From the sequence record NC_073053.1: 41,800 bases of DNA; one strand, written 5' to 3'. The notes under the pieces were generated by a model. That model had not been told where the DNA came from and made no database searches. It worked only from the letters and a program-made list of their open reading frames with translations. This DNA is from Escherichia phage vB_EcoD_Teewinot. Shown piece by piece: positions 3,600 to 40,381 of the stretch (its first letter is position 1; each line of letters opens with the position of its first letter). The translations under genes were made by a program, and so were the position numbers.

Positions 3600-4686
3600 T
3601 CAATATTTGGCGGATCGAATGATTCGCCGTCACATCTTCACCCAGCGCCTGAGCAATGATCAGGCGCGGAGGGTGCTGGCTATGTGGGAGAAGTTCCGGC
3701 CCACTTTACTTGGTAAGCTGACCGAGTTACTTGATGGCAAAAAGTCCATGAGCAACAAGGCACTTACCACACTGTTAACGCAACTCGACAAGACCGTCAA
3801 AACGGAACTGCGCGCCGAGTTTAAAGTGCTGGCGGAGAGCCTTCAGGAGTTCGCCGACACCGAGGCTGATTATCTCGCGGACACACTAACGGCAGCGATC
3901 CAGCCCGCTGTCGCCGTACCCGCTGTTGAAGTAGTTGGCGTTGTTACCGGCGCGCAGATTGCAGCGACGGCAATGAAAAACCCGTTCCAGGGTAATACTA
4001 TGATGCAATGGCCTGATTCCCTTTCCGAGTGGACCAGGACGCAGATCGGTAATCAGGTGCGCGCTGGCTTCATCCAGGGCAAGCCAACGATGGAAATTAT
4101 CGCGGACGTGAGGCGCGCGCTAGGCGGTCGTAGTGCGCAAGCCATCTCAAGCGTTGTTAAGTCCGCAGTAAACCACTATGCGGCGACTGCCCGCGAACTA
4201 ATGGTAAAAGCAAATGACGATATTCTCGAAGGTCGCCAATGGTTATCTACATTGGACACACATACTTCTCCCATGTGCCAGCTACGCGATCGCCTGTTTT
4301 ATCCGGTTGATGTTACTCCCGACACCAAAGGAAAGCGCGGCGGGAAAGTGGTGGCGGGGTCACAGTATGGCGCTGGCCCAGGCAAGCTGCATTATTGCTG
4401 CCGGTCAACGGAGACGTGGAAAGTCAAAGGCATGGAAGATTGGCCCAGTGGTAAGCGTCCGGCCCTGAAGGCTGACGCGGGTCGGTTGCTGAGTGAGCAG
4501 GTCGACGCGCAGACTGATTTCTTCTCCTGGGTGCAGCGCCAGCCGCGCCACATCCTGGAGGAATTATATGGGGTGCAGCGCGCGGACCAGATTATGCGCG
4601 GCGTGAAAGTGCCGAAGATGTTCACTGATACCGGCGAACTAATGACTGTTGCACAGCTTAAAAACCGGGGGTTATGGCGTGATTAA
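3583..4686 (+). CDS. head morphogenesis / minor head protein
   Basis: 367 aa ORF overlapping the portal stop; position typical of SPP1 gp7/Mu F-like head morphogenesis proteins. Confidence 0.55.
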   Translation: MAKTVNQYLADRMIRRHIFTQRLSNDQARRVLAMWEKFRPTLLGKLTELLDGKKSMSNKALTTLLTQLDKTVKTELRAEFKVLAESLQEFADTEADYLADTLTAAIQPAVAVPAVEVVGVVTGAQIAATAMKNPFQGNTMMQWPDSLSEWTRTQIGNQVRAGFIQGKPTMEIIADVRRALGGRSAQAISSVVKSAVNHYAATARELMVKANDDILEGRQWLSTLDTHTSPMCQLRDRLFYPVDVTPDTKGKRGGKVVAGSQYGAGPGKLHYCCRSTETWKVKGMEDWPSGKRPALKADAGRLLSEQVDAQTDFFSWVQRQPRHILEELYGVQRADQIMRGVKVPKMFTDTGELMTVAQLKNRGLWRD

Positions 4687-5008
4687 ATATGCAGCGATCG
4701 GGGTGGTTATCGGCCTGGCGGTTGGCTTCTGGCTGGGTGATTCCTACCGCGCTGGCGTTGTGGCGAGCGCGGCGCAAGAAGCGCAAGCGAAAGCCCGACG
4801 GCAGCAAACTAAGGTTGTCGAGGGGGCAGTGCAGGCAGAACAGGCCCGCGACGTAGAATACCGGACTATCACGAAAGAGGTTGTAAAATATGTTACGCGT
4901 CCTAACCGTCCTGATTGTAGTTTTGATGCTGAGCGCGTGCGGATCAAGCAACGTGCCGTTGATGCCGCTAACGGAGTCGGCACTGCGACCGCCGTGCAAG
5001 TTCGATAA
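4679..5008 (+). CDS. i-spanin (Rz-like), putative
   Basis: N-terminal TM helix (IKYAAIGVVIGLAVGFWLG) followed by A/Q/E/K/R-rich helical region. GTG 4679 preceded by GGGGGT; the track gives a TTG start at 4649. A lipoprotein ORF is embedded in the +1 frame over its 3' end. Confidence 0.5.
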   Translation: MIKYAAIGVVIGLAVGFWLGDSYRAGVVASAAQEAQAKARRQQTKVVEGAVQAEQARDVEYRTITKEVVKYVTRPNRPDCSFDAERVRIKQRAVDAANGVGTATAVQVR

Positions 5009-5120
5009 CCCGTCCGCGGACCCCGACGAAGATTTGATGATTGACGTGAAAAATATGGAATGCGGCGCGAAGCTAAGGGCGCAAGTGCTGGAGTTGCAGA
5101 AAATAATTCGGGGGCCGTGA
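4890..5120 (+). CDS. o-spanin (Rz1-like outer-membrane lipoprotein), putative
   Basis: Signal peptide with lipobox (VLMLSAC-GSS), proline-containing mature part with a Cys; embedded out of frame in the 3' end of the preceding TM protein gene; stop codon sits in the loop of a terminator. Confidence 0.55.
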   Translation: MLRVLTVLIVVLMLSACGSSNVPLMPLTESALRPPCKFDNPSADPDEDLMIDVKNMECGAKLRAQVLELQKIIRGP

Positions 5121-5134
5121 TGGCCCCTTTTGTT
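5111..5134 (+). terminator. rho-independent terminator
   Basis: GGGGCC-gtgat-GGCCCC followed by TTTTGTT. Confidence 0.6.
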
Positions 5135-5250
5135 AGCGTGGAATACCGCAGATTTCGAGAGTCCATCATGATTGATTTGGCTTCGGTCGCTATTTCGTGG
5201 TCGCGCAGGATGTTAGCCAGAATCTGGTTTTTAATGTCTTTCGTCAGTCT

Positions 5251-5311
5251 CATTAGTGTGTCCTCGTTGTTGGTGTGCAACCAATATATGCAACCAATAC
5301 GAGGATTGCAA
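5251..5311 (-). promoter_or_regulatory. leftward promoter-RBS-ATG cassette (duplicate of the cassette at 38308-38369)
   Basis: On the minus strand: -35 TTGCAA (5311-5306), 17-bp spacer, -10 TATATT (5288-5283), two ATTGGTTGCA copies, GAGGA RBS (5265-5261), ATG (5253-5251). The 28-nt stretch TATATTGGTTGCACACCAACAA(C)GAGGAC is shared with the promoter of the gene at 38367. Confidence 0.45.
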
Positions 5312-7865: not shown

Positions 7866-8084
7866 ATGAATCCTGCATTACTCGCGGCTATTATCGCCGC
7901 AAATACTAAACGCCGACAGGAACCGGAACCACCGGTACCAGCGCCAGAACCGGAACCACCGGTACCAGCGCCAGAACCGGAACCACCGGTACCAGCGCCA
8001 GAACCGGAACCACCGGTACCAGCGCCAGAACCGGAACCACCGGAACCAGCGCCAGAACCGGAACCACCGGTACAGGAGGGCTAA
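7866..8084 (+). CDS. small proline/glutamate repeat protein
   Basis: ATG 7866 preceded by AGGGGG; 72 aa, N-terminal hydrophobic segment followed by about five copies of PEPEPPVPA encoded by a 27-bp tandem DNA repeat. Confidence 0.5.
   Translation: MNPALLAAIIAANTKRRQEPEPPVPAPEPEPPVPAPEPEPPVPAPEPEPPVPAPEPEPPEPAPEPEPPVQEG
7920..8076 (+). repeat. 27-bp tandem repeat (about 5.8 copies) inside a coding region
   Basis: Unit GAACCGGAACCACCGGTACCAGCGCCA repeated head-to-tail from 7920; four exact copies, a fifth with one substitution, and a partial sixth. Confidence 0.85.
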
Positions 8085-8088
8085 GAAG

Positions 8089-8442
8089 ATGGCGGGCTTT
8101 AATTACGCAGGATTAAAGCGGAAAGTGAATCCGCTGATTAAAAAATTCGGCATGACCGTTACGGTTACGCGTCCGGGGTCGGTTGACCGTGTAGACGGCG
8201 AAGAAGTGGTCATCCCACCGACCTCGTTTGACGTCATCGGTCTTCGCGAGGAGTACAAGCCGAGCGAGATCGACGGAACGCGTATCGTTGCCGGTGATGT
8301 GAAGTTTTTATGTCGGGCGGTTGAGCAATTGCGGGTGGGCGACCTGGTTAACCTGAACGGTGCTGACTACCGTGTCGTCAATCCTAACCCACTGCAACCG
8401 GCTGGCACTACCATGCTGTTTCAACTACAGCTAAGGGGCTAA
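8089..8442 (+). CDS. hypothetical head-tail connector protein
   Basis: 117 aa ORF with AAGAAG upstream, in the connector region between head and tail genes. Confidence 0.45.
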   Translation: MAGFNYAGLKRKVNPLIKKFGMTVTVTRPGSVDRVDGEEVVIPPTSFDVIGLREEYKPSEIDGTRIVAGDVKFLCRAVEQLRVGDLVNLNGADYRVVNPNPLQPAGTTMLFQLQLRG

Positions 8443-10992: not shown

Positions 10993-11135
10993 TGAAGCGG
11001 GACAGGCGGGACGTCCCGTTTTGTCCCGCCTCTGTAAAACTGCATATCTACTCACTTCCACTGCATAAACTCAAAACGGGACAAGCGGGACGTCCCGCTT
11101 TGTCCCGCCCTGTAAATGTGCATACCTATGCAGTT
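10993..11135. repeat. pair of 30-bp GGGAC palindromes with TGCATA-containing spacers
   Basis: Two near-identical imperfect palindromes CGGGACAAGCGGGACGTCCCGCTTTGTCCCGCC around 11003-11040 and 11084-11120, each centred on GGGACGTCCC, separated by CTGTAAA(N)TGCATA-type repeats. Confidence 0.7.
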
Positions 11136-11139
11136 TTAT

Positions 11140-11313
11140 TGCATAAAGTAAGCGGGACAAAAAGCGGGACAAACAAGGGGCGGGACAAAGCGGGACAGCA
11201 CCCCGTCCCCGCCAGTGCTGCCGCGGTTTTCAGCCGATCGGGACAGCGGGACAGCACCCCAGTCTTTCAGACTAGACGGGGGTCAATGGCCCCCCTCGTC
11301 TGAGACTGAATAA
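11140..11313. repeat. 174-bp GCGGGACA-array element, copy A
   Basis: Four tandem GCGGGACA units spaced about one helical turn apart, a variable centre, two more GGGACAG units, then a long imperfect hairpin (AGACGGGGG...CCCCCCTCGTCT). Near-identical copy at 37996-38169. Confidence 0.8.
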
Positions 11314-16182: not shown

Positions 16183-16790
16183 CCACATTTAAATTATACG
16201 GCGTTTTAGGACGTCGATTCGGTAAAGTGCATAAGCTGGACTGCTTCACACCGGGCGAGGGTATCACCGGCCTGTGCGTGAAGTTACCCGGCTTACAGGA
16301 CTTTCTAATGTCGGCCCACCTGGACAATATGATGTTCAAGGTGCGCAAAGGCGACCACACGATGACCGGCTATGATGAGCTGGGCGAGTTCCACGGCAAC
16401 CGCGTAGTTACCATCGCGCCGGTTATGACGGGCGCAAAAAGCGGGTTGGGACAATTGCTGGCGGGTGTCGCGATCGTAGTGGCGTCGTTCTATACGGGCG
16501 GACTTGCTGCTGCCGCTTTCGGGGCTTCGGCTGCAACCGCTGCCGCTATCGGGACGGCGACGTTTTCGTTCGGGATGTCGATGGCGCTGGGTGGCGTTAT
16601 GCAATTGCTGTCGCCACAACCGAAAGGATTGCAGACAAGGCAGGACGTGGATAACAAAGCGTCGTACGCGTTCGGCGGGCCAGTGAATACAACAGCGCAA
16701 GGCACGGCGCTTGGTGTATTATGGGGCGAGCGTGAGATCGGCGGCGCTATTATTTCAGCCGGAATCGTAACCGAGGACTTGAACGAATGA
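16173..16790 (+). CDS. tail assembly protein I-like
   Basis: 205 aa with glycine/alanine-rich hydrophobic central segment, overlapping the K-like stop and the J-like start. Confidence 0.55.
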   Translation: MAMTTFKLYGVLGRRFGKVHKLDCFTPGEGITGLCVKLPGLQDFLMSAHLDNMMFKVRKGDHTMTGYDELGEFHGNRVVTIAPVMTGAKSGLGQLLAGVAIVVASFYTGGLAAAAFGASAATAAAIGTATFSFGMSMALGGVMQLLSPQPKGLQTRQDVDNKASYAFGGPVNTTAQGTALGVLWGEREIGGAIISAGIVTEDLNE

Positions 16791-19700
16791 CGATTATCTA
16801 CGACGTCACTGGGCATAAAGGCGGCGGCGGCAAACAGCACACCCCGCAGGAAACGCCGGATAGCCTGCATTCCCTGGCTAAAATCCGCATCTTGCTTGCG
16901 CTAGGGGAAGGGGAATTCGAAAGTATTACCAGCGCCAGCGAATTACGGCAGCGCGTATATCTGGACGGAACACCGATCCAGAACGCCGACCTATCGGAAA
17001 ACTTCCCCGGCGCGCGCGTGGAGTTCCGCCCCGGCACACAGCACCAGGATGTGATCCACGGATTTTCAGCGGTGGAAAGTGAGCAATCTGTCGGCGTAAA
17101 ACTGGAAAACGGTACGCCGTGGGTACGCCAGATTAACGATACCAGTCTGGACGCCGTTCGCATTCGCATCGGAATTCCGGCCCTGTACACTACCGAAGAT
17201 AATGGCGACCTGGTTGGCGGACGCATTGACTATAAGATCGTTGTGTATACGGATAACGCCGACCCGCGTGAGTTCAGATTCGCCGCCGTTGGTAAAACAA
17301 TATCGCTGTATGAGCGCGACCACCGCATCGAATTACCGCCGAACGTGAATACCGGCTGGCGCGTGGAGGTGCACCGCATAACGGCAGACTCCACATCGGC
17401 GAAAGTGGTTAATGATATCCGGGTGCAGTCCATCACTGAGATTATTGACGCCCGCCTGCGTTACCCGCTAACCGCGCTGTTGTTTGTGGAGTTCGACGCC
17501 AAAGCGTTCCAGAACATCCCGCGCGTGTCCATCAAGTGCAAAGGTCGCAAAGTTCTAATACCGAACAACTACGACCCGATCAATCATACCTATTCCGGGG
17601 ACTGGGACGGCACGTTTAAACGCGCATGGACGGATAACCCTGCGTGGCACTGGTACGATATTTGTATTACTGAGCGCTTCGGCCTCGGTCGGCGTATCAA
17701 ACCGCAAATGCTAAACCGATACGCGCTCTACCAGATTGCGCAGCGCTGCGATCAGTTGGTCAGCGACGGCAACGGTGGTCGAGAAATCCGCTTTAAGAAT
17801 GATATGTACATTCAGTCACAGACGGATGCCTGGACCGTGCTTAAGGATTTAGCCGCCATCTTCGCCGGAATGACCTGGTGGGGCAACCAGATGTTGAATA
17901 TCGTCAGTGACCAACCGGTCGCAGCAGTGTCGCACACTATCACCAACGCCTCGGTTATTGATGGGCGCTTCGACTACGCGTCCGGTAGCCAGAAAACTCG
18001 GTACTCCACGTTCGCAGTAGCATACGGCAACCCGAAGAACCACTATGAAGATGCTATCGCAACGGGGCAACGTGTCGAACTGGTACGCCGCCATAAGATT
18101 AACCGTCTCGATATTACGGCGATCGGCTGTACGCGTGAATCTGAAGCGCAGCGTCGCGGGCACTGGGCGCTAATTTCCAACCAGCTTGACCAGCAAGTTA
18201 GCTTTAAAGTTGGCATGGAAGGGTTATTCTTTATTCCCGGTAGCGTAGTCGCGATCGCGGATACAAACATTTCTGGCGGTTTTGAGACGCGCGGCGGTCG
18301 ACTGTTGTCGGACCCCGGAACTCGTACCGTGCTGAACACGGACAGCGAAATCACATTCCGCCCTGGCGATAAGTTCCTGGTACGCACCGATAGCGGTAAT
18401 GTGGAGACTCGCGAGATCGCCAGCGTCAACGGCAACAAGGTAACGCTAAAAACCGCACTGGACGCCAACCCTATTCCTGACCAGCCGTTTTGCGTTGATG
18501 GCGACGATATCCAGTTGCAGAAATTCCGCATCACCGACCTGGAGTATGACGACTCTACGAGCACTTTCTCGGTGCGCGGGATTGAGTACAACGATAGCAA
18601 GTATGATGCCGTTGATAATGGCGCGCGCCTTGATCCGGGTATCTTTACGCAAGTGCCTGACGGGGTAATGAAGGGGCCGGAATCCGTGACCATCACCCCG
18701 TCGCAGATTTCATCGCAAGGGCAGCTAATCACCAACGTGGATATTGTATTCCCTCCGGTGAAGGATGCCGTGGTGTATGAAATCCAGTGGAGGCGTACCA
18801 GCCTTCAGAATATGGAAATCCAGTGGGGTAACGACTGGGTGAATATCCCACGCACGGCGTCGAATGGGGCGCACATCCCTAACGTGTTCTCCGGTAACTA
18901 CCAGGCACGCGTCCGCGCGATCGGTATGGGCGAGATTTCATCTCCGTGGGTGTCGTCCGCCATCACGCCGGTGGAAGGTCGTCTCGGTGGGCTTAACGCA
19001 CCAATCATCACCAACGCTATTTCGGGCCTTCACCAGATCTTGTGGAAGTGGAACCACAACAACGCCGCTACTGATATCTCGTACACCGAGCTTGAAGTGC
19101 GCAAGACCGGTGAGACTGAATGGAAATTCCTTACCAACGTCCCATATCCGGGGGCGGAGTATGCGCAAACATCGCTGGAGTTCGGAATTTACCAGCAGTT
19201 GCGCGCCCGTGTAGCGGATAAAATCGGCAACCTGTCGGACTGGTCGGCCCCGTTTGAAGGGCAGGTGAGTGACAAAGTTGACGAGTACATGAAGGGGCTT
19301 GATAACGAGTTCTTGACTTCCGAGGATGGTAAACGCTTCCAGGAAGCAATCAACACGATCCCGCAGGGTATTTACGAGGCGATGCTCACCGACGCGCATC
19401 AATTGTTCAACGCCCGCGCCGAGTACAAGGGTATTTATGCGGAAATCTCGGTCGCGTATAACGTGGCGGCGGACGCCCACAAGGCGGTCTCTCAACTGGA
19501 GACGTTGATCGGCACGCGACTTGATGACGCGGAAGCTGCGATCCACACGTTGCAGACCGCGCAGAGCACACATGAACAAGCGTTCGCCCAGTACCAGCAA
19601 ACTGTTGCCGCTAAGTTCAGGGAACAGGAAGCCGCCATCCAGCAGGTACAAACGGCAACCGCAGACGTGGCGGGAGCGCTGGCGGAATATAAGACCCAGG

Positions 19701-20206
19701 TCGCTACACAGTTCGGTCAGCAGTCCGCCGCTATCGAGCAGAAGATGACGTCCTCGTTTAACCACTCTGGTGGTAGCGCCACGTATAGCCTTAAGGCTGG
19801 CGTGACATATAACGGGACTTATTATGATGCGGGTATGCAGCTTTCCGTTGTGACGTCTGGCAACGCGGTTAAATCGCGTATTGCGTTCAAGGCGGACCAG
19901 TTCTACATCATGCATCCGTCCAATGGGACGCTGTCGTCTGCGTTTATTGTGGACGGTGGCGCGGTGTATATCGACACGGCACGCATCAAGAACGCGTCCA
20001 TCAACTTCGCGCATATAACAGACACGCTGCAATCGAATAACTACGACGGCAGCACGCGCGGCTGGCGCTTAGGGAAAGATGGAACGTTTATCAACCTGGG
20101 CACCGGTAGCGGCGGCGGGATGAAACAGACGAACACAAGAATCAGCGTGAAGGACGGAAACGGCGTTCTCCGCGTGCAGATTGGTGAGCTTACTGGTAGC
20201 TGGTAG
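16787..20206 (+). CDS. central tail fibre / host specificity protein J-like
   Basis: 1139 aa, by far the largest ORF; follows the M/L/K/I-like genes in lambda order. C-terminal third is Q/A-rich helical then a probable receptor-binding region. Confidence 0.8.
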   Translation: MTIIYDVTGHKGGGGKQHTPQETPDSLHSLAKIRILLALGEGEFESITSASELRQRVYLDGTPIQNADLSENFPGARVEFRPGTQHQDVIHGFSAVESEQSVGVKLENGTPWVRQINDTSLDAVRIRIGIPALYTTEDNGDLVGGRIDYKIVVYTDNADPREFRFAAVGKTISLYERDHRIELPPNVNTGWRVEVHRITADSTSAKVVNDIRVQSITEIIDARLRYPLTALLFVEFDAKAFQNIPRVSIKCKGRKVLIPNNYDPINHTYSGDWDGTFKRAWTDNPAWHWYDICITERFGLGRRIKPQMLNRYALYQIAQRCDQLVSDGNGGREIRFKNDMYIQSQTDAWTVLKDLAAIFAGMTWWGNQMLNIVSDQPVAAVSHTITNASVIDGRFDYASGSQKTRYSTFAVAYGNPKNHYEDAIATGQRVELVRRHKINRLDITAIGCTRESEAQRRGHWALISNQLDQQVSFKVGMEGLFFIPGSVVAIADTNISGGFETRGGRLLSDPGTRTVLNTDSEITFRPGDKFLVRTDSGNVETREIASVNGNKVTLKTALDANPIPDQPFCVDGDDIQLQKFRITDLEYDDSTSTFSVRGIEYNDSKYDAVDNGARLDPGIFTQVPDGVMKGPESVTITPSQISSQGQLITNVDIVFPPVKDAVVYEIQWRRTSLQNMEIQWGNDWVNIPRTASNGAHIPNVFSGNYQARVRAIGMGEISSPWVSSAITPVEGRLGGLNAPIITNAISGLHQILWKWNHNNAATDISYTELEVRKTGETEWKFLTNVPYPGAEYAQTSLEFGIYQQLRARVADKIGNLSDWSAPFEGQVSDKVDEYMKGLDNEFLTSEDGKRFQEAINTIPQGIYEAMLTDAHQLFNARAEYKGIYAEISVAYNVAADAHKAVSQLETLIGTRLDDAEAAIHTLQTAQSTHEQAFAQYQQTVAAKFREQEAAIQQVQTATADVAGALAEYKTQVATQFGQQSAAIEQKMTSSFNHSGGSATYSLKAGVTYNGTYYDAGMQLSVVTSGNAVKSRIAFKADQFYIMHPSNGTLSSAFIVDGGAVYIDTARIKNASINFAHITDTLQSNNYDGSTRGWRLGKDGTFINLGTGSGGGMKQTNTRISVKDGNGVLRVQIGELTGSW

Positions 20207-20242: not shown

Positions 20243-20545
20243 ATGGCATTCGGTATCGCAACGTGGGACGAGCAAGGACGCCCAAACAACTACGGCATTA
20301 AACCGGTAAGCGTGATCGGAAGGATTCATCTTGCGGAAGGACAAAAATCAGGCGCATGGTCATTCCCTGTACCGGCGGGGATGAAGGTCGGATACGTGGT
20401 CGCACTGGATAACGGCGCGGTCGGGCCAGGCCGCAGAATAACCGCCAGCGGGAACACTATCACGGTTTCCGCGGCAAGTGCGGTAGGTGGCGGGGTTTAC
20501 TCCGCATCTGAATGTGACGTTATTGTTTTTGTGGAGCGAGCATAA
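20243..20545 (+). CDS. hypothetical tail-associated protein
   Basis: 100 aa ORF with GAGG RBS after the J-gene terminator. Confidence 0.45.
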   Translation: MAFGIATWDEQGRPNNYGIKPVSVIGRIHLAEGQKSGAWSFPVPAGMKVGYVVALDNGAVGPGRRITASGNTITVSAASAVGGGVYSASECDVIVFVERA

Positions 20546-21219
20546 TGGCTAATTACGGCGCGTTGATTGACTTACCAAACGGCAACCCGTTTATCACACC
20601 AGAATCGACGCCGTTTTGTCTATTCCGCCGTGTGGTTGTTGGGTCTTCGGCTAACGGCACTATGCAGTCGGCGGCTGCCGATATTAATTTGGGTGGTGAC
20701 TACCCTGCAATAGCGTTTGTGAAAACTACGCACACCGCCCAGCCGACCGTCGTAGGGTCTTCTCGCGTTGGTAATGTGGTGAAGGTGAGCGCCAGCAATC
20801 CATTCGGGCAAGGCTTCACGATGACGGCTTACATCTTTGCCATATTCCCACAGACCCTTCCGCGGTGGGGCTTCGCTATTTGGGATAAGACGGGGAAGCT
20901 AGTGCTTACTAATGAGAGTCGCGTACTAAGCGATTTAGTTACCGTCGGATCGCCAGGCGCTAACGGGGGGATTAACATTGACCAGACGCTAAATGGCAGC
21001 TACGCCGTCGCTCCGGGCATATTGGGGTCTACGCTGATCCGGTTTTTTGTGCAGGGCCAGCCGCAAGTAATATCGATAACGGCGTACACGGGGGCCAGAT
21101 TTGATGGGTCGCGAACGCGTATATCGGCAGCGTCGGCGGGGAGAGCCACGGGGGGTGTGGTGGGGTATACTAACAACGGCAACGCGATTATGGCGATTAA
21201 CACGGCCAATTATGATTGA
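20545..21219 (+). CDS. hypothetical tail fibre accessory protein
   Basis: 224 aa ORF, start overlaps the previous stop (TAATG), glycine-rich; followed by a bidirectional terminator. Confidence 0.5.
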   Translation: MANYGALIDLPNGNPFITPESTPFCLFRRVVVGSSANGTMQSAAADINLGGDYPAIAFVKTTHTAQPTVVGSSRVGNVVKVSASNPFGQGFTMTAYIFAIFPQTLPRWGFAIWDKTGKLVLTNESRVLSDLVTVGSPGANGGINIDQTLNGSYAVAPGILGSTLIRFFVQGQPQVISITAYTGARFDGSRTRISAASAGRATGGVVGYTNNGNAIMAINTANYD

Positions 21220-21221
21220 AG

Positions 21222-21245
21222 AAAATCCCCTTTCGGGGATTATTC
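21222..21245. terminator. bidirectional terminator between convergent genes
   Basis: ATCCCC-tttc-GGGGAT flanked by an A-run on one side and T-rich sequence on the other; sits between the + gene ending 21219 and the - gene ending 21240. Confidence 0.55.
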
Positions 21246-21458
21246 GCAGGTGGTGTTTTTGAAATGGTCTACCGACACGTACTGGAAGCTAAACGGATAA
21301 CCCGCCCTTAGCATTTTATGCCCGGAGAAGTCCGCAACACCATACACAGGGACCACATAATCCATGCCGCTATTCTGGTATGTGGCGTCGCAGACTTTAG
21401 CGGGCATGTCGGCACAACCTGACAAAAGAACCGCACAAATCATAATTAAAGTTTTCAT
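21240..21458 (-). CDS. small lipoprotein (candidate Cor-like superinfection exclusion protein)
   Basis: 72 aa, signal peptide with lipobox (AVLLSG-C), GAGGA RBS, own promoter; only minus-strand gene inside the tail gene block. Confidence 0.55.
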   Translation of the reverse strand: MKTLIMICAVLLSGCADMPAKVCDATYQNSGMDYVVPVYGVADFSGHKMLRAGYPFSFQYVSVDHFKNTTCE

Positions 21459-21491
21459 GGTATCATCCTCTATATATTTGGTTGAGTTTTA

Positions 21492-21519
21492 GTATTACAC
21501 CGCTCAACCAGGATTGCAA
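21492..21519 (-). promoter_or_regulatory. sigma70-like promoter for the lipoprotein gene
   Basis: On the minus strand: ATTGGTTGCAA supplies -35 TTGCAA (21519-21514), 16-bp spacer, -10 TAATAC (21497-21492). Confidence 0.4.
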
Positions 21520-21540
21520 CCAATTTATGGGGATTTAGCT

Positions 21541-22281
21541 ATGGCAGCGGGTACGCTATCCGTAACGAACAATAGCACGGCGGTAGTAGGAGTCGGCACA
21601 ACGTTTACCGCGTTTAAAGCTGGCGACTTCTTAACGCTGGTGGTAGGACAAGTGCCTTACACAGTGGCGATCGCATCAATCGAAAGTAACACGGCGCTTA
21701 CGCTGGTGTTGCCGTTCGACGGCCCAACGGCAACCGGCCTTGCTTGGGATGGTGTTAAGCGCGATACCATGTCGCTGGCAACGATGGGCGTTACCGTACA
21801 GGCACAGAAAGCGTTGCGATTGATGATTGCAGATGAAAACAACTGGCGTGCGATCTTCGGCGACGCTGAAGAAATTACCGTGACGTTACCTAACGGGCAA
21901 GTCATGCAGGGTATGTCATGGGGCTATCTGTCGAAATTGCTTAAGAACGTAGATCTGGTTGAGATGCGCGACCTCGCAGCGCAAGCCGAAGCATCAAAAT
22001 TGGCAGCGCAGGGATTCCGCGATCAGGCTGAGGAGTGGGCCCGCCAGCGCTTCGGTATTATCGCCGAGGAAGCGGAGCTAATTGCGCCGCAGTACGTTAA
22101 ACACCACGAGTTCCCGATCGAGGATATTCTCGACGAAGACGGCAACAAGATCGGGGAGAAGATGACGGACCGCCCATCCATCGACGTTAACCCGATCGTA
22201 ATGGACTTGATGGGATGTGTTCAATATCTCAATAAGCAGGTGGAGGAGTTGAAGGCCGAGATCGCGGCGTTGAAGAAATAA
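21541..22281 (+). CDS. tail fibre-like protein with C-terminal coiled coil
   Basis: ATG 21541 (the track start at 21514 is a TTG inside the promoter motif); N-terminus MAAGTLSVTNNSTAVVGVGTTF... is paralogous to the ORF at 14055; C-terminus ends in a heptad-like EELKAEIAALKK. Confidence 0.5.
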   Translation: MAAGTLSVTNNSTAVVGVGTTFTAFKAGDFLTLVVGQVPYTVAIASIESNTALTLVLPFDGPTATGLAWDGVKRDTMSLATMGVTVQAQKALRLMIADENNWRAIFGDAEEITVTLPNGQVMQGMSWGYLSKLLKNVDLVEMRDLAAQAEASKLAAQGFRDQAEEWARQRFGIIAEEAELIAPQYVKHHEFPIEDILDEDGNKIGEKMTDRPSIDVNPIVMDLMGCVQYLNKQVEELKAEIAALKK

Positions 22282-22288
22282 ATAGAAG

Positions 22289-22310
22289 GGGCCATACGGC
22301 CCCTTTTTCT
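22289..22310. terminator. bidirectional terminator between convergent blocks
   Basis: GGGGCC-atac-GGCCCC with an A-run upstream and T-run downstream; separates the plus-strand late block from the minus-strand block. Confidence 0.6.
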
Positions 22311-35383: not shown

Positions 35384-37648
35384 ATGAACTTAATTAAATT
35401 CGCTGTAACACGACCCGCTAAAAAAGGCGAAAAAGCCAGGGCGGAAAACTTCCAGATGACCACCGATGAGTTTTTCGAATTTATTAATGATGCGAAAGAA
35501 ATATCCTCGGTGCATATCAACAAGACGGAAGATAAAGCGGAGTATGCGCGCCGCAAGCGTAAGGCTGATGGTATTGTGGCTTATACCCGTGACGGCTTAC
35601 GCCGCAAGACCAGTGCCGTGGACCGCTCGATCCTGTTCTTCGATATCGACCGTACCGACACCCGCACCCTGCGCCGCTGCCGTAAGGCTTTCATCGACGC
35701 GGGGCTGGAGCACGTATTTCACACCACAACCGGCGACCGCCACCCGCTGAAAGGCGGCACGCGTTGCGCTCGATTCCTGGTACTCACGGACAAGCCTGTA
35801 CCGGCTGAAGACCTGGGCCGTGTCCAGTATGCGCTATTACACCAACTGGGTCTGTCAGATGTGGACTTCGACGATTGCACGAAAGACACAAACCGCCTGA
35901 TGTACCTGCCACACCAGCAGTCTGTCGTTAAGTGCCACTACGGCAAGCGCGCCCGCGTCCGTCGTCTGCTCCGCCTGGCTGACAAGCTGGGAGTCGAGAA
36001 AGAGGAAGTACGCCGCGAACTGACCCAGGGCGATGATGGTGTGGCGGACGGTATTCTGGATTGGTGCTTCCAGGCGGGATTCGAACCGCTGTCGTCTGGT
36101 CGTGGTTATGAAGTGCCATGCCCGAACGAACACCTGCACAGCGGCGAAGGGTCCACCGCTATCTTGGTTAAGGATGGCGAGATCCGTTTCAAGTGTATGC
36201 ACACCGGCAACGAGTGTTGCTCGGAGCTGAACAGACACCAGCACCTGGCGCTACGTCTTATCGGGATCCCGGACCACCTGAACGTCGAGCCACACAACAT
36301 GTCCCGTAAGCAAATCGCCGCCATCCTCCCCGGACTGGACGACGAGGAAGTGGAATCGTGCTATGAACATATCGTTGATGCGGTCGGAGACGGCGACGAG
36401 TACGGCGTGTGTACTGATGCAGACCTGGACAACGAGCCGGTCGCACTGTTCAGTAAGCACGACCCGATCATCGAAGGCCTGGTCAACTTCAAATCGACCT
36501 GGTATCTCGCCGGTGAGTCGAACATCGGTAAATCGTTCTACGTGCTGGGGCAAATGGGTGCGGTTGCCGCGGGGATTCCGTTCGGCGGTGCGAAGGTCGT
36601 CCAGTCCCATTGCTTCTATTTCGACGCGGAAGGTGGCGAAGCCTCCAACCAGCGTAAGGAAGCATTGCAGATCAAATACGAGCACGACCTCGACAAGCTG
36701 CACATTATCGATCTGCAATCACGCGGCTGGGATATCACCAGCAAATCCGGCTTGCGTGAAGTTATCAGCTTCATCAACCGCACCGCTAACGGCGAACCGG
36801 TTGGCCTGGTGGCGTTCGACTCACTCAACCAGACGGTTGCGCTGCGGTCCGCCGATGCTAAACCGTTCGACGAGAACAACGCCAGCGATATGGGTGAAGT
36901 GGTCAAAGCGCTGAAGGCCATCGCGGAAAATACAGGCGGCAGTGCTGGCGTCATCCACCACCCGGCGAAGGGTGCAAACGGCAGCAGATCCCCCCGCGGG
37001 TCCGGCGCGCTGCATGGTGCTGTAGATTCCGCGTTCTTCCTGGAGCAACCGGACGACAATCAGCCCGGACAACTTAACCTGTATCACGAGAAGGCACGTA
37101 ACGGCATCAAGCAAGCGCCGCGCGGCTTCGTCCTGCTCAAGTGCAAGGTTAAGGTGGATCTCCGCAAGTCCGAGGCGTTCGAGGCGCACCAGTCCACCAG
37201 CACCGGGCCAGACTTCGGCGACGTGGTTGCCGGATGGGACGTCAAGCCGATTGCCTCCACGCCACGCGACGAGACTCTCTACCTCGTACCGGTCGCCCTG
37301 GCACCGTTCGCTATAGAACAGGCGAAGGCGGCTGGCAAGGCCGCGGTTAAGGACGAGAATGCCGCAGGACCGCGCAACGAAAAAGAGAAAGTGCTTTATG
37401 CGGCACTGGAAAAACTGATGGAAGATAACCCGGACCATACCGGATTCAGCAAATCGGCAATTGTCCGCCAGGCGGGATTGGCAAAAGGTGGAACATCTAC
37501 GAAGGCAATAGACGATATGGTTGAGCGCGGAGTGTTAGGTTTTTATACCGATCCGCACACCGGGGCCATCTATGGGTCGTCGAATATAGTCATCAAAACG
37601 AATATACCCATCACGCTTTCTGCGACCGATGACGACCTGAAAGATTAA
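35384..37648 (+). CDS. primase-helicase (AEP-type primase domain plus P-loop ATPase)
   Basis: 754 aa; N-terminal SILFFDIDRTD (hhhDhD primase-polymerase motif) and DDCTKDTNRLMYLP, a Cys/His zinc-binding segment, then Walker A GESNIGKS. Confidence 0.7.
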   Translation: MNLIKFAVTRPAKKGEKARAENFQMTTDEFFEFINDAKEISSVHINKTEDKAEYARRKRKADGIVAYTRDGLRRKTSAVDRSILFFDIDRTDTRTLRRCRKAFIDAGLEHVFHTTTGDRHPLKGGTRCARFLVLTDKPVPAEDLGRVQYALLHQLGLSDVDFDDCTKDTNRLMYLPHQQSVVKCHYGKRARVRRLLRLADKLGVEKEEVRRELTQGDDGVADGILDWCFQAGFEPLSSGRGYEVPCPNEHLHSGEGSTAILVKDGEIRFKCMHTGNECCSELNRHQHLALRLIGIPDHLNVEPHNMSRKQIAAILPGLDDEEVESCYEHIVDAVGDGDEYGVCTDADLDNEPVALFSKHDPIIEGLVNFKSTWYLAGESNIGKSFYVLGQMGAVAAGIPFGGAKVVQSHCFYFDAEGGEASNQRKEALQIKYEHDLDKLHIIDLQSRGWDITSKSGLREVISFINRTANGEPVGLVAFDSLNQTVALRSADAKPFDENNASDMGEVVKALKAIAENTGGSAGVIHHPAKGANGSRSPRGSGALHGAVDSAFFLEQPDDNQPGQLNLYHEKARNGIKQAPRGFVLLKCKVKVDLRKSEAFEAHQSTSTGPDFGDVVAGWDVKPIASTPRDETLYLVPVALAPFAIEQAKAAGKAAVKDENAAGPRNEKEKVLYAALEKLMEDNPDHTGFSKSAIVRQAGLAKGGTSTKAIDDMVERGVLGFYTDPHTGAIYGSSNIVIKTNIPITLSATDDDLKD

Positions 37649-37960
37649 ATTTTGCGCGCATTGGGAATTCCCATATCGCTAAAGATTAAATTTTGCGCGC
37701 ATTGGTTGCCATTTTGGGAATTCCCATATCGCTAAAGATTAAATTTTGCGCGCATTGGTTGCCGATATGGGAATTCCCATATCGCTAAAGATTAAATTTT
37801 GCGCGCATTGGTTGCCATTTTGGGAATTCCCATATCGCTAAAGATTAAATTTTGCGCGTATTGGTTGCCATTTTGGGAATTCCCATATCGCTAAAGATTA
37901 AATTTTGCGCGTATTGGTTGCCATTTTGGGTGTTTTTAACTGGTCGTATTGGTTGCCGTG
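37640..37960. repeat. iteron array, about six tandem 53-bp repeats (candidate origin of replication)
   Basis: Unit AAAGATTAAATTTTGCGCGCATTGGTTGCCATTTTGGGAATTCCCATATCGCT at 37681, 37734, 37787, 37840, a 41-bp first copy at 37640 (12-bp deletion) and a degenerate sixth; each has the palindrome TGGGAATTCCCA, extended to GATATGGGAATTCCCATATC in the third copy. Starts in the last codons of the primase-helicase gene. Confidence 0.75.
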
Positions 37961-37995
37961 TAGGGTGATTATTATGAATAGTTATGCAATAAAAC

Positions 37996-38169
37996 TGCAT
38001 AAAGTAAGCGGGACAAAAAGCGGGACAAACAAGGGGCGGGACAAAGCGGGACAGCACCCCCGTCCCGCCCCGGATGGCGCGGCTTTCAGAGGAGCGGGAC
38101 AGCGGGACAGCACCCCAGTCTTTCAGACTAGACGGGGGTCAGTGGCCCCCCTCGTCTGAGACTGAATAA
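37996..38169. repeat. 174-bp GCGGGACA-array element, copy B
   Basis: Same length as copy A (11140-11313); identical over the first 60-odd bp and the last 70-odd bp except one A/G difference, with a diverged roughly 40-bp centre. Confidence 0.8.
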
Positions 38170-39336: not shown

Positions 39337-39371
39337 GTCCCAGTGAGCTAAAACTTACTGGGACTTTTTTA
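39337..39371 (+). terminator. terminator abutting the holin start codon
   Basis: AGTCCCAGT-12 nt loop-ACTGGGACT followed by TTTTTT, then ATG 39371 immediately. Confidence 0.55.
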
Positions 39372-39661
39372 TGGATAAGCTAAACGAGTGGTTATTCGCC
39401 CTTGCGTGTCTTGCTGGTGGCTTCGTGGGCGCACGCATTCACGGCGAGGCAACGAAAGGGCCGTTGAACTTCGTTTTATATGTCGTAGTTGGCTTCCTGT
39501 GCGCCATATTTGGTGCGCCAGCCATTGCCGAGTGGTCTGGTTTGTCTGGCGAGCGCACTGTCGCCGGTTTGGGCTTCGTAACTGCAATCTTCTGGATGCC
39601 AATAGCCGCCCGGATCAGGGAGACTATTGAGTCGTTCCGACTTCCGGGGGGCGCAAAATGA
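39371..39661 (+). CDS. holin (putative, three TM helices)
   Basis: 96 aa with three hydrophobic helices (WLFALACLAGGFVGA; LNFVLYVVVGFLCAIFGAPAI; VAGLGFVTAIFWMPIAA) and a charged C-terminus; two genes upstream of the endolysin. Confidence 0.55.
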   Translation: MDKLNEWLFALACLAGGFVGARIHGEATKGPLNFVLYVVVGFLCAIFGAPAIAEWSGLSGERTVAGLGFVTAIFWMPIAARIRETIESFRLPGGAK

Positions 39662-39903
39662 TTATCTCCGTCCTGTTGTTTGTTATCATAGGGGCTTCGT
39701 CCCTGTTTAACGTGTATGCGCCGTCCGTCCAGGATGGCATTTTAGGCCGGGTGTTATATCTGCTAACGGCGATGATCTGCGTTATCGGATTGTTGCAAAC
39801 AGGAGACGTATCTGACACCACCTGGACCGCGTTAATCTGGTTGTTTGCATTGCGCACGCTGCGTAATGCTGTTTTGAATGGGGTAAAACATGCGATTCAG
39901 TGA
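39658..39903 (+). CDS. second holin-like membrane protein (holin/antiholin partner?)
   Basis: 81 aa with two to three TM helices, GGGGGG RBS, overlapping start/stop codons with its neighbours. Confidence 0.5.
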   Translation: MIISVLLFVIIGASSLFNVYAPSVQDGILGRVLYLLTAMICVIGLLQTGDVSDTTWTALIWLFALRTLRNAVLNGVKHAIQ

Positions 39904-40381
39904 CAACGGTCTACGATTTACGGCAGCATGGGAGACTTTCAGCCCAGTGCCGTATTTCGCGACTAAGAAAGAGCAGGCCCGCGGCCTGTACACCTGGGGT
40001 TATGGTCATACCGGCACTAACCCGCCTCGAAGCATTACCCGCGCGGAAGCGCTGGAGCTACTCAAGCGCGATGTGGCGTATGCTGAGGACCGGGTGAACA
40101 AATACGCACATCCGAGCATTAACCAGGCGCAATTCGACGCGCTGGTGGACCTGGTGATCAATGCTGGTCCCGGTCCGATCGTACCGGACGACGTAGCCGG
40201 TGACTTCGATGATGCGGTGCGACTGGGTGACTGGGCGAAGGTCCGTGCTACTCTGCCGCAGTTCCGCAAGCAAGGTGGGGAGGTGCTTAAGGGTCTGGTC
40301 CGTCGAGCAATCGGCAGGCAAGCGCTATTCGATGGAAAGCAGTGGGACGTTGCCGAGAAAATCGGTCGTAACGCAGCATAA
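39890..40381 (+). CDS. endolysin, GH24 lysozyme type
   Basis: 163 aa; recalled P22-type lysozyme landmarks match: SDNGL near the N-terminus, catalytic E (WETF), YTWGYGHTG, INQAQFDALVDLVINAG, C-terminal RRAIGRQALF. Confidence 0.8.
   Translation: MRFSDNGLRFTAAWETFSPVPYFATKKEQARGLYTWGYGHTGTNPPRSITRAEALELLKRDVAYAEDRVNKYAHPSINQAQFDALVDLVINAGPGPIVPDDVAGDFDDAVRLGDWAKVRATLPQFRKQGGEVLKGLVRRAIGRQALFDGKQWDVAEKIGRNAA

What the first reader, a model, noticed from the sequence alone, without database searches (positions are those of the whole stretch)
21240..21519. Opposite-strand lipoprotein with its own promoter inside the tail gene block
This is the only minus-strand gene in 22 kb of plus-strand structural genes. 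It has a promoter, RBS, lipoprotein signal peptide and a bidirectional terminator. Position and form match moron-type superinfection exclusion lipoproteins (Cor-like) that block the receptor used by the neighbouring tail fibre genes.
Basis: inference. Interest (0 to 1): 0.5.

Follow-up and report, generated by a model that had tools for sequence, protein, structure and literature searches.

The report
Cor receptor-blocking lipoprotein gene, already known
The small opposite-strand gene is a genuine member of the well-known Cor family, through which phages that enter via the FhuA iron transporter switch that receptor off in the infected cell; it is already annotated as such in the public record of this phage, so the finding is correct but ordinary.

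Summary
The window is the complete 41,800-bp genome of Escherichia phage vB_EcoD_Teewinot, a virulent Dhillonvirus. ORF 21240-21458 (-) encodes a 72-aa lipoprotein precursor with lipobox LSGC. It scores 56.3 bits against NCBIfam NF047972 "phage exclusion lipoprotein Cor" (cut-off 31) and E=3e-26 against PHROG 1119. It is 47% identical to T1 Cor and 42% to phi80 Cor, under purifying selection (dN/dS 0.07-0.20), and already deposited as "super-infection exclusion protein" UGO51146.1.

It closes the conserved J / gp22-like / gp23-like / cor cassette of FhuA-dependent siphophages, and Teewinot needs FhuA experimentally (PMC10373560). The predicted fold weakly resembles T5 Llp, solved bound to FhuA.

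Three corrections:
- The blocked receptor serves the tail tip and the locus upstream, not the lateral fibre downstream.
- The phage has no lysogeny genes, so this is lytic conversion rather than a prophage moron.
- The promoter is conserved but below the scan threshold, and the terminator has a good U-tract only on the cor strand.

No exclusion phenotype has been measured for this protein. Novelty: already known. Interest: low.

The parts
21240..21458 (-). cor gene. 72-aa precursor of a 58-aa (about 6.5 kDa) lipoprotein, Cor superinfection-exclusion family.
   Evidence: ORF. PHROG 1119 E=3e-26. NCBIfam NF047972 56.3 bits against cut-off 31. Identical to UGO51146.1 of phage Teewinot. dN/dS 0.07-0.20.
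21414..21458 (-). Codons 1-15: signal peptide with lipobox LSGC. Cys15 is the predicted lipidated N-terminus. Ala at +2 predicts sorting to the outer membrane.
   Evidence: Rule-based lipobox match. G14 and C15 are invariant in 56 homologues. The +2 sorting rule is established knowledge, applied by inference.
21466..21470 (-). Shine-Dalgarno sequence GAGGA, about 8 nt upstream of the ATG.
   Evidence: Read from the sequence. A purine-rich GGAG or GGGG core is kept in all 8 relatives.
21491..21519 (-). Putative sigma-70 promoter: -35 TTGCAA (21519-21514), 17-nt spacer, extended -10 TGt (21499-21497) and -10 AATACT (21496-21491).
   Evidence: By eye. Both hexamers are kept in 6 of 8 Dhillonvirus relatives and differ by one base in KarlBarth and SM_A8. 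At 8/12 it is below the 9/12 threshold of the scan. Function is inferred.
21216..21241 (-). Intrinsic terminator of cor: hairpin 21224-21241 overlapping the TAA stop, then a UUUUCUUC tract. The same hairpin lies 5 nt after the stop of the convergent gp23-like gene but has a poor U-tract in that direction.
   Evidence: Fold -12.8 kcal/mol, z -2.9. Compensatory stem change in relatives and an equivalent GCCCC/GGGGC hairpin in T1, annotated there as a terminator. Not called by the scan.
20545..21219 (+). gp23-like gene (224 aa, PHROG 425), convergent with cor. Part of the FhuA-associated locus downstream of J.
   Evidence: Described as a bona fide RBP locus in PMC8594841 and as the cor cassette in PMC13164509.
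20243..20545 (+). gp22-like gene (100 aa, PHROG 557), first gene of the same locus.
16787..20206 (+). J-like central tail fibre / tail tip protein (1139 aa).
   Evidence: 98.6% identical to Envy gp23 'tail protein'. Treated as the RBP of Teewinot in PMC10373560.
21541..22281 (+). Lateral tail fibre gene (246 aa), divergent from cor. Not the FhuA-binding component.
   Evidence: PHROG 1980. UGO51147.1 'putative tail fiber protein'. An internally deleted version of the 805-aa Envy gp19.

Best explanation
This is the cor gene of the virulent Dhillonvirus phage Teewinot.

Proposed mechanism:
1. After infection, host RNA polymerase transcribes the gene from its own weak sigma-70-type promoter, on the strand opposite to the tail genes.
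2. The 72-aa precursor is exported. It is lipidated on Cys15 and cleaved by signal peptidase II.
3. [quoted passage not shown]
4. The 58-aa mature protein is a small beta-sheet domain, probably clamped by a Cys23-Cys71 disulfide. It binds FhuA, the phage's own terminal receptor. By analogy with T5 Llp, binding is most likely at the periplasmic face, and it forces the extracellular loops, including loop 8, which Teewinot needs, into a conformation the tail tip cannot bind.
5. As a result, the infected cell no longer adsorbs further FhuA-dependent phages, and progeny are not wasted on FhuA in cell debris after lysis.

What is shown and what is inferred:
- Shown here: the gene, its family membership, the lipobox, the synteny and the fold prediction.
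- Shown by others: Teewinot depends on FhuA; Cor of lambdoid phages inactivates FhuA; Llp binds periplasmic FhuA.
- Inferred: that this particular protein does the same, its timing of expression, the disulfide, and the binding site.
For: - Identity of the window. Its proteins are exactly those of phage Teewinot, whose contig is 41,800 bp, and the ORF is deposited as 'super-infection exclusion protein'.
- Family. NCBIfam NF047972 equivalog 56.3 bits against 31. PHROG 1119 E=3e-26 over the full length. BLASTP to T1 Cor E=1e-22 at 47% identity. 151 homologues, many named 'phage exclusion lipoprotein Cor'. G14, C15, C23, A52, G53, P55 and C71 are invariant.
- Synteny. The order J / gp22-like / gp23-like / cor is the same in Envy, T1 and phi80. 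This cassette was reported in BASEL Drexlerviridae and Dhillonvirus phages that all use FhuA (PMC13164509).
- Receptor. Teewinot is FhuA-dependent and needs loop 8 (PMC10373560).
- Mechanism by analogy. [quoted passage not shown] Cor and Llp models share an architecture (bioRxiv 10.64898/2026.03.26.714494). An AF3 model docks KanT1 Cor at periplasmic FhuA.
- Tested here. The AF2 model has pLDDT about 95 over the mature part. The PDB hit with the lowest rmsd and highest identity is Llp 8a60_B: rmsd 3.1 A, 24% identity, TM 0.48/0.54. BFVD hits after the Dhillonvirus Cor are Llp-type lipoproteins of T5-like phages. A Cor profile finds 8a60_B as the best PDB sequence hit, E=0.016.
- Real coding gene: dN/dS 0.07-0.20.
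Against: - No experiment exists on this protein or on any Dhillonvirus Cor in the papers I could search.
- The links to Llp are weak statistically. Foldseek gives E=0.11, and Tudor-like small barrels score similarly. The profile hit at E=0.016 covers mostly the signal peptide and the first Cys.
- The promoter is sub-threshold and the time of expression is unknown.
- From my own recollection of Arguijo-Hernandez et al. 2018, of which I saw only the title, Cor exclusion may involve other outer-membrane proteins. A simple one-to-one Llp-like mechanism is therefore not certain.
- Some Cor-like proteins accompany BtuB-using phages, so family membership alone does not fix the target.
Confidence: 0.85

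Rival explanations
1. The protein has the same target, FhuA, but does not act as a periplasmic allosteric clamp like Llp. It would need or act through other outer-membrane proteins, or would occlude FhuA directly.
For: The mechanism of Cor 'has not yet been elucidated'. [quoted passage not shown] The structural match to Llp is only moderate here, at E=0.11 and TM about 0.5.
Against: The lipobox with Ala at +2 places the protein in the periplasmic leaflet of the outer membrane. Among PDB hits, Llp has the lowest rmsd and the highest identity. Published AF3 modelling docks a T1-type Cor at the periplasmic face of FhuA.
Confidence: 0.15
2. This is a Cor-fold lipoprotein that blocks a different outer-membrane transporter, such as BtuB or another TonB-dependent transporter, rather than FhuA.
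For: Cor/Llp-like proteins occur in phages that use BtuB. The protein is only 42-47% identical to the characterised Cor proteins.
Against: The phage itself depends on FhuA. The complete three-gene cassette was reported in BASEL phages that all use FhuA. J is 98.6% identical to that of Envy, which is FhuA-dependent. Blocking a receptor the phage does not use would have no obvious benefit.
Confidence: 0.04
3. It is a lysis component, specifically an outer-membrane spanin (Rz1-type lipoprotein).
For: It is a small outer-membrane lipoprotein encoded by a phage, which is the general description of an o-spanin.
Against: The genome already has a spanin pair at 4649-5008 and 4890-5120, the latter with lipobox LSAC, matching Envy's Rz-like spanins. 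No i-spanin partner is adjacent to cor. The mature protein has only 3 Pro in 58 residues and a confidently predicted beta-sheet fold. It passes the curated Cor model.
Confidence: 0.01
4. It is a virion or tail-assembly protein encoded within the tail block.
For: Only its position among the tail genes.
Against: It lies on the opposite strand, carries a lipoprotein export signal, and belongs to a family whose prophage copies confer exclusion in lysogens (PMC3594210). In phi80 and T1 it sits at the same place without being annotated as structural.
Confidence: 0.01

Closest known systems
Cor of phage T1 (YP_003915.1) and other virulent T1-like and Dhillonvirus phages
   Same: 47% identity over the full length. 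Same lipobox, the same two extra cysteines and the same RAGYPFSF motif. Same position after J / gp22-like / gp23-like. Same convergent orientation, sharing a GC-rich hairpin with the gp23-like gene. The phage is virulent and FhuA-dependent.
   Different: A different phage lineage (genus Dhillonvirus, not Drexlerviridae). It is three residues shorter. In T1 the gene on the promoter side of cor is a recombination gene, whereas here it is the lateral tail fibre gene.
Cor of temperate phages phi80, HK022, N15 and mEp167 (the experimentally characterised members)
   Same: About 40-42% identity. Passes the NCBIfam 'lamb_exclu_cor' equivalog model built on this group. Same cassette downstream of J. 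Those proteins inactivate FhuA functions, including phage entry, ferrichrome uptake and colicin M (PMC3594210).
   Different: In phi80, cor is on the same strand as the tail genes and is followed by its own terminator. Those phages are temperate and express cor from the prophage as a moron. Teewinot has no lysogeny genes by annotation transfer. The lambdoid proteins carry a 3-residue insertion (KQEP) before the first conserved Cys.
Llp, the lytic conversion lipoprotein of phage T5 (PDB 8A60 chain B)
   Same: A small outer-membrane lipoprotein of a virulent, FhuA-dependent siphophage, encoded next to the receptor-recognition genes. It has an intramolecular disulfide and a similar small beta fold: rmsd 3.1 A over 51 columns, 24% identity. 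It is the best PDB sequence hit of the Cor profile. Published work treats Cor and Llp as one structural family.
   Different: Sequence similarity is marginal (E=0.016, N-terminal part only), and the Foldseek E-value of 0.11 is not significant on its own. T5 uses a different RBP (pb5), and T5 infection is TonB-independent. Family membership in the strict sense was not established here.
Rtp45 of phage Rtp and SE(Oeko) of the Dhillonvirus Oekolampad (LptD-blocking lipoproteins)
   Same: A small periplasm-facing lipoprotein encoded right after the RBP locus downstream of J in small siphophages, including members of the same genus. It blocks the phage's own terminal receptor from inside by changing the extracellular loops (PMC12685063).
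   Different: The target is LptDE, not FhuA. No sequence match to the window's protein was seen in any search here, and I did not compare the structures directly.

Membership tests
Cor superinfection-exclusion lipoprotein (NCBIfam NF047972 / PHROG 1119) | Sequence match to the curated family model above its cut-off, over the full length | tested here: met
   NF047972 equivalog: 56.3 bits against cut-off 31, residues 2-72 on model positions 2-77 of 78. PHROG 1119: E=3.1e-26, residues 1-72 on model positions 1-75 of 78.
Cor superinfection-exclusion lipoprotein (NCBIfam NF047972 / PHROG 1119) | Lipoprotein signal peptide with a lipobox cysteine | tested here: met
   LSGC at residues 12-15. G14 and C15 are invariant in 56 family members. 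Actual lipidation cannot be tested here.
Cor superinfection-exclusion lipoprotein (NCBIfam NF047972 / PHROG 1119) | Conserved core: two further cysteines near the ends of the mature protein, and the (R/K)AG(Y/D)PF motif | tested here: met
   C23, A52, G53, P55 and C71 are invariant and F56 nearly so.
Cor superinfection-exclusion lipoprotein (NCBIfam NF047972 / PHROG 1119) | Position at the end of the J / gp22-like / gp23-like cassette of FhuA-dependent siphophages | tested here: met
   Same gene order in the window, Envy, T1 and phi80. The association with FhuA use is reported in PMC13164509.
Cor superinfection-exclusion lipoprotein (NCBIfam NF047972 / PHROG 1119) | The encoding phage uses FhuA as its terminal receptor | tested here: met
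   The window was identified as phage Teewinot by exact protein look-up. Teewinot's FhuA and loop-8 dependence was shown experimentally in PMC10373560. This is literature evidence, not a computation.
Cor superinfection-exclusion lipoprotein (NCBIfam NF047972 / PHROG 1119) | Expression excludes FhuA-dependent phages and impairs FhuA functions | not testable with these tools
   Needs expression and plating assays. I found no such data for any Dhillonvirus Cor in the papers searched.
T5 Llp (lytic conversion lipoprotein) | Detectable sequence homology to Llp | tested here: inconclusive
   The single sequence gives no PDB hit at E<=10. A 56-sequence profile finds 8a60_B as the top hit, but at E=0.016 and over profile positions 1-45 only.
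T5 Llp (lytic conversion lipoprotein) | Same fold as the solved Llp structure | tested here: inconclusive
   Foldseek against 8a60_B: E=0.11, TM 0.48/0.54, rmsd 3.1 A, 24% identity, rank 9 behind Tudor domains with rmsd above 6 A. Llp-like lipoproteins of T5-like phages appear in BFVD at E=1e-3 to 1e-2. This is consistent with published claims but not decisive alone.
Moron (independently transcribed accessory gene expressed from a prophage) | Own promoter and terminator flanking a gene inserted among late genes | tested here: inconclusive
   The terminator hairpin is supported. The promoter is conserved but scores only 8/12 plus a TG and was not called by the scan.
Moron (independently transcribed accessory gene expressed from a prophage) | Base composition different from its neighbours | tested here: met
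   GC is 47.0% against 54.5% for the genome, which is the 6.7th percentile of 219-bp windows. The neighbouring genes are at 54-56%. The deviation is modest.
Moron (independently transcribed accessory gene expressed from a prophage) | Carried by a temperate phage and expressed in the lysogen | tested here: not met
   No integrase or repressor is annotated among the 62 genes of the close relative Envy, nearly all of which map onto the window. Virulent phages are described as using Cor or Llp to disable their porin receptors (PMC11990801).
o-spanin (Rz1-type lysis lipoprotein) | Gene embedded in, overlapping or adjacent to an i-spanin gene | tested here: not met
   The neighbours are the gp23-like gene and the lateral tail fibre gene. 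The spanin pair is at 4649-5120.

The most novel reading that the evidence does not exclude
The most novel reading not excluded concerns regulation by gene arrangement. cor converges on the tail-tip genes over a shared hairpin that terminates well only in the cor direction. The conserved arrangement in Dhillonvirus and T1 could therefore act as a built-in timing switch. Once late tail transcription starts, read-through across the weak plus-strand terminator would run antisense through cor and its promoter on the way to the lateral fibre gene, shutting cor off or tuning it. If so, orientation, rather than a dedicated regulator, would restrict cor to early expression. A second, smaller possibility is that this divergent Cor (42-47% identical to the studied ones) has a different exclusion spectrum among FhuA phages, because Teewinot-type phages depend on loop 8 while T1 depends on loop 4.
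Probability: 0.12. Interest if true: 0.3.

Novelty: already known. Interest (0 to 1): 0.08.

Why it matters
It matters little for discovery. The gene is already deposited under the right name, the family has been known for decades, and the three-gene cor cassette of FhuA-targeting Dhillonvirus and Drexlerviridae phages has been described in recent papers.

Its practical value is as a marker. A cor gene after J / gp22-like / gp23-like predicts FhuA as the terminal receptor. It also warns that cells infected by such a phage, and their debris, stop adsorbing other FhuA-dependent phages. That is relevant when designing phage cocktails.

Cor's binding mode on FhuA remains unsolved experimentally. 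This 58-residue Dhillonvirus variant would be one more candidate for a FhuA-Cor structure.

Tried and rejected
- Pfam gave no hit for Cor or for its two upstream neighbours. A single-sequence search of PDB sequences also gave nothing.
- The consensus promoter/terminator scan called neither the cor promoter nor its terminator. I located both by eye and checked them by alignment and folding.
- The inverted repeat GGTTGAG...CTCAACC (21509-21481) over the -10 region could have been an operator or a leader hairpin. I rejected it: 5 of 8 relatives carry single uncompensated changes in one arm, and the fold is not unusual (z -1.7).
- The plus-strand promoter-like site inside cor (CTGACA-16-CATAAT, 21419-21446, 10/12) could have been a promoter for the fibre gene. 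Its -35 hexamer is changed in most relatives at a synonymous codon position, so it is probably chance.
- The first homologue search with the single protein returned only 6 close relatives. A second search with a 4-sequence alignment was needed to reach 151.
- OK499993, the presumed source record, is not in the annotated phage collection. I established identity through an exact protein look-up instead.
- The proteomics paper on the related phage EE09 does not report Cor detection in the text I could search. Wietzorrek et al. 2006 is not held. I found no Dhillonvirus transcriptome.
- Rfam and tRNA scans of the whole window found nothing.
- The o-spanin and virion-protein readings were considered and rejected (see the rival explanations).

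Full report
**What the window is.** An exact-sequence look-up places the three proteins encoded at 20545-22281 in Escherichia phage vB_EcoD_Teewinot. Two of them are on record only from a contig of 41,800 bp, which is the length of the window. A paper on FhuA-dependent coliphages lists Teewinot as a Dhillonvirus of 41,800 bp, accession OK499993 (PMC10373560). That record is not in the annotated collection I could query. The closest annotated genomes there are Opt212, Envy/Sloth and JLBYU37, at 96-97% identity over the region.

**The observation.**
- ORF 21240-21458 on the minus strand encodes 72 aa: MKTLIMICAVLLSGCADMPAKVCDATYQNSGMDYVVPVYGVADFSGHKMLRAGYPFSFQYVSVDHFKNTTCE.
- It starts with ATG, preceded by GAGGA about 8 nt upstream, and ends with TAA.
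- Residues 1-15 form a textbook lipoprotein signal: Lys2, a hydrophobic core, and the lipobox LSGC. The mature protein has 58 residues and about 6.5 kDa.
- A simple lipobox rule run over all six frames finds only this ORF and the o-spanin at 4890-5120.
- The frame is under purifying selection, with dN/dS 0.07-0.20 against seven Dhillonvirus relatives.
- I mapped all 62 annotated proteins of phage Envy onto the window.
- One qualification: relatives carry a second opposite-strand gene in the head module (Envy gp39, 254 aa). The window keeps only a 5' remnant of it at 5080-5253 (-), after a deletion of about 636 bp.

**Promoter and terminator.**
- The consensus scan found no minus-strand promoter of 9/12 or better upstream of the gene, and no terminator at its end.
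- Reading the minus strand gives TTGCAA (21519-21514), a 17-nt spacer ending in TGt, and AATACT (21496-21491). That is an 8/12 match with an extended -10 TG.
- Both hexamers are kept in 6 of 8 Dhillonvirus relatives and differ by one base in KarlBarth and SM_A8. That says little, because these genomes are very similar overall.
- Geometry also argues for an own promoter. The gene upstream in the cor direction is the oppositely oriented fibre gene, and the next co-oriented gene ends at 22309.
- The hairpin AATCCCC-GAAA-GGGGATT (21241-21224 on the cor strand) overlaps the stop codon, folds at -12.8 kcal/mol (z -2.9), and is followed by UUUUCUUC.
- Relatives have GCCCC-N4-GGGGC at the same place. 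That is a compensatory change, and T1 has an equivalent hairpin annotated as a terminator.
- On the plus strand the same hairpin is followed only by AUUAUUC. 'Bidirectional' is therefore only half supported, and late tail transcripts may well read through towards the fibre gene. That last point is inference.

**What it is.**
- The protein matches PHROG 1119 'Cor superinfection exclusion protein' over its full length, E=3.1e-26.
- It passes the curated cut-off of the NCBIfam equivalog NF047972 'phage exclusion lipoprotein Cor', 56.3 against 31 bits.
- tblastn finds full-length homologues in 241 phage records, including T1 Cor at 47% and phi80, mEp and HK140 Cor at 40-42%.
- A profile search returned 151 proteins, many named Cor by NCBI.
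- In an alignment of 56 of them, G14, C15, C23, A52, G53, P55 and C71 are invariant.
- The gene closes a conserved cassette: the J-like tail tip protein (16787-20206), a 100-aa gp22-like protein (PHROG 557), a 224-aa gp23-like protein (PHROG 425), and then cor. The same order is seen in Envy, T1 and phi80.
- In T1, cor is convergent as here. In phi80 it is co-directional.
- The GenBank record of this phage already calls the protein 'super-infection exclusion protein', UGO51146.1.

**How it most likely works.**
- Teewinot is FhuA-dependent and loses infectivity when FhuA loop 8 is deleted (PMC10373560).
- Cor proteins of HK022, N15 and phi80 protect lysogens against FhuA-dependent phages by inactivating the receptor, and they reduce ferrichrome uptake (PMC3594210).
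- Virulent porin-targeting phages are described as using Cor (T1) or Llp (T5) to stop progeny adsorbing to debris (PMC11990801).
- For T5 Llp the mechanism is solved. [quoted passage not shown] The authors expect Cor to act similarly (PMC9586334).
- Two 2026 reports find that predicted Cor structures share the Llp architecture. One of them docks a T1-type Cor at periplasmic FhuA by AF3.
- I tested the fold link for this protein. An AlphaFold2 model built from the 56-sequence alignment has pLDDT about 95 over the mature domain, which consists of four beta strands.
- Against the PDB, no match is significant by E-value. Even so, Llp (8a60_B) is the hit with by far the lowest rmsd (3.1 A) and the highest identity (24%), with TM 0.48/0.54.
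- Against BFVD, the hits after the Dhillonvirus Cor itself are lipoproteins of T5-like phages, including one named 'receptor-blocking protein'.
- A Cor profile finds Llp as the best PDB sequence hit, at E=0.016.
- The Llp-like mechanism is thus plausible and consistent, but not proven. Ala at +2 predicts outer-membrane sorting, and the invariant C23 and C71 suggest a disulfide like that of Llp. Both points are inference.

1. The receptor that is blocked serves the tail tip. The J-like protein and the two small genes directly upstream of cor form what the BASEL authors call the bona fide RBP locus with its cognate exclusion gene (PMC8594841). The gene on the other side of cor is the lateral fibre gene, thought to bind surface glycans.
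2. The phage is virulent. No integrase or repressor is annotated in Envy, and nearly all of its genes map onto the window. Testing 'expression in lysogens' is therefore moot, and 'moron' applies only loosely. The GC content is 47.0% against 54.5% for the genome.
3. The spanin pair is elsewhere, at 4649-5120, and cor has no i-spanin partner.

**Verdict.** This is a real feature, correctly interpreted in the main, and already known and annotated. What remains unknown is experimental: the exclusion phenotype and spectrum of a Dhillonvirus Cor, its time of expression, and the actual FhuA-Cor interface.

Noticed in passing
window 21541-22281 (+): The lateral tail fibre gene encodes only 246 aa. It equals residues 1-164 plus about 686-805 of the 805-aa Envy homologue, an in-frame loss of about 1.67 kb with the junction near 22025-22031. 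The distal receptor-binding part is missing, perhaps a sign of propagation on rough K-12 hosts where the fibre is dispensable.
   Followed up: partly
window 5080-5253 (-): This is a remnant of a second opposite-strand gene in the head module. Envy gp39 (254 aa, unknown function) is reduced here to its first 35-60 codons by a deletion of about 636 bp. Together with the fibre deletion, this accounts for about 2.3 kb of the roughly 3.4 kb by which this genome is shorter than Envy's.
   Followed up: partly
window 10997-11313 and 37975-38169 (+): A 195-bp direct repeat (89% identity) is present in two copies 26.9 kb apart. One copy lies just upstream of the tape-measure gene and the other lies after the primase-helicase gene. 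Each copy holds 5-6 of the 16 GCGGGACA octamers in the window (1.8 expected by chance), followed by a GC-rich stem-loop. It looks like a binding-site array for a phage regulator. No sigma-70-like promoter was called in the scanned region around the second copy.
   Followed up: partly
window 37608-37983: A tandem array of about six 53-bp units lies immediately after the primase-helicase gene and runs straight into the second copy of the 195-bp repeat. It may be an origin or iteron region.
   Followed up: no
window 7893-8100 (+): A 27-bp tandem repeat (GAACCGGAACCACCGGTACCAGCGCCA, about 7 units) lies between the head-tail adaptor and head-closure genes. Its reading frame and coding status were not checked. 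Envy aligns poorly across it, with a blastn break at 7965-8042, so copy number probably varies between phages.
   Followed up: no
window 4649-5120 (+) and 39371-40381 (+): The spanin pair sits in the head-morphogenesis module: an i-spanin at 4649-5008 and an overlapping o-spanin lipoprotein at 4890-5120. That is about 34 kb from the holin and endolysin genes, so the lysis cassette is split.
   Followed up: no
window 20243-21219 (+): [quoted passage not shown] By eye their sequences show no signal peptide or hydrophobic segment. They have no Pfam or NCBIfam match. Recent papers disagree on whether they are the FhuA-binding proteins or part of the exclusion system. This is the genuinely open question at this locus.
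   Followed up: partly
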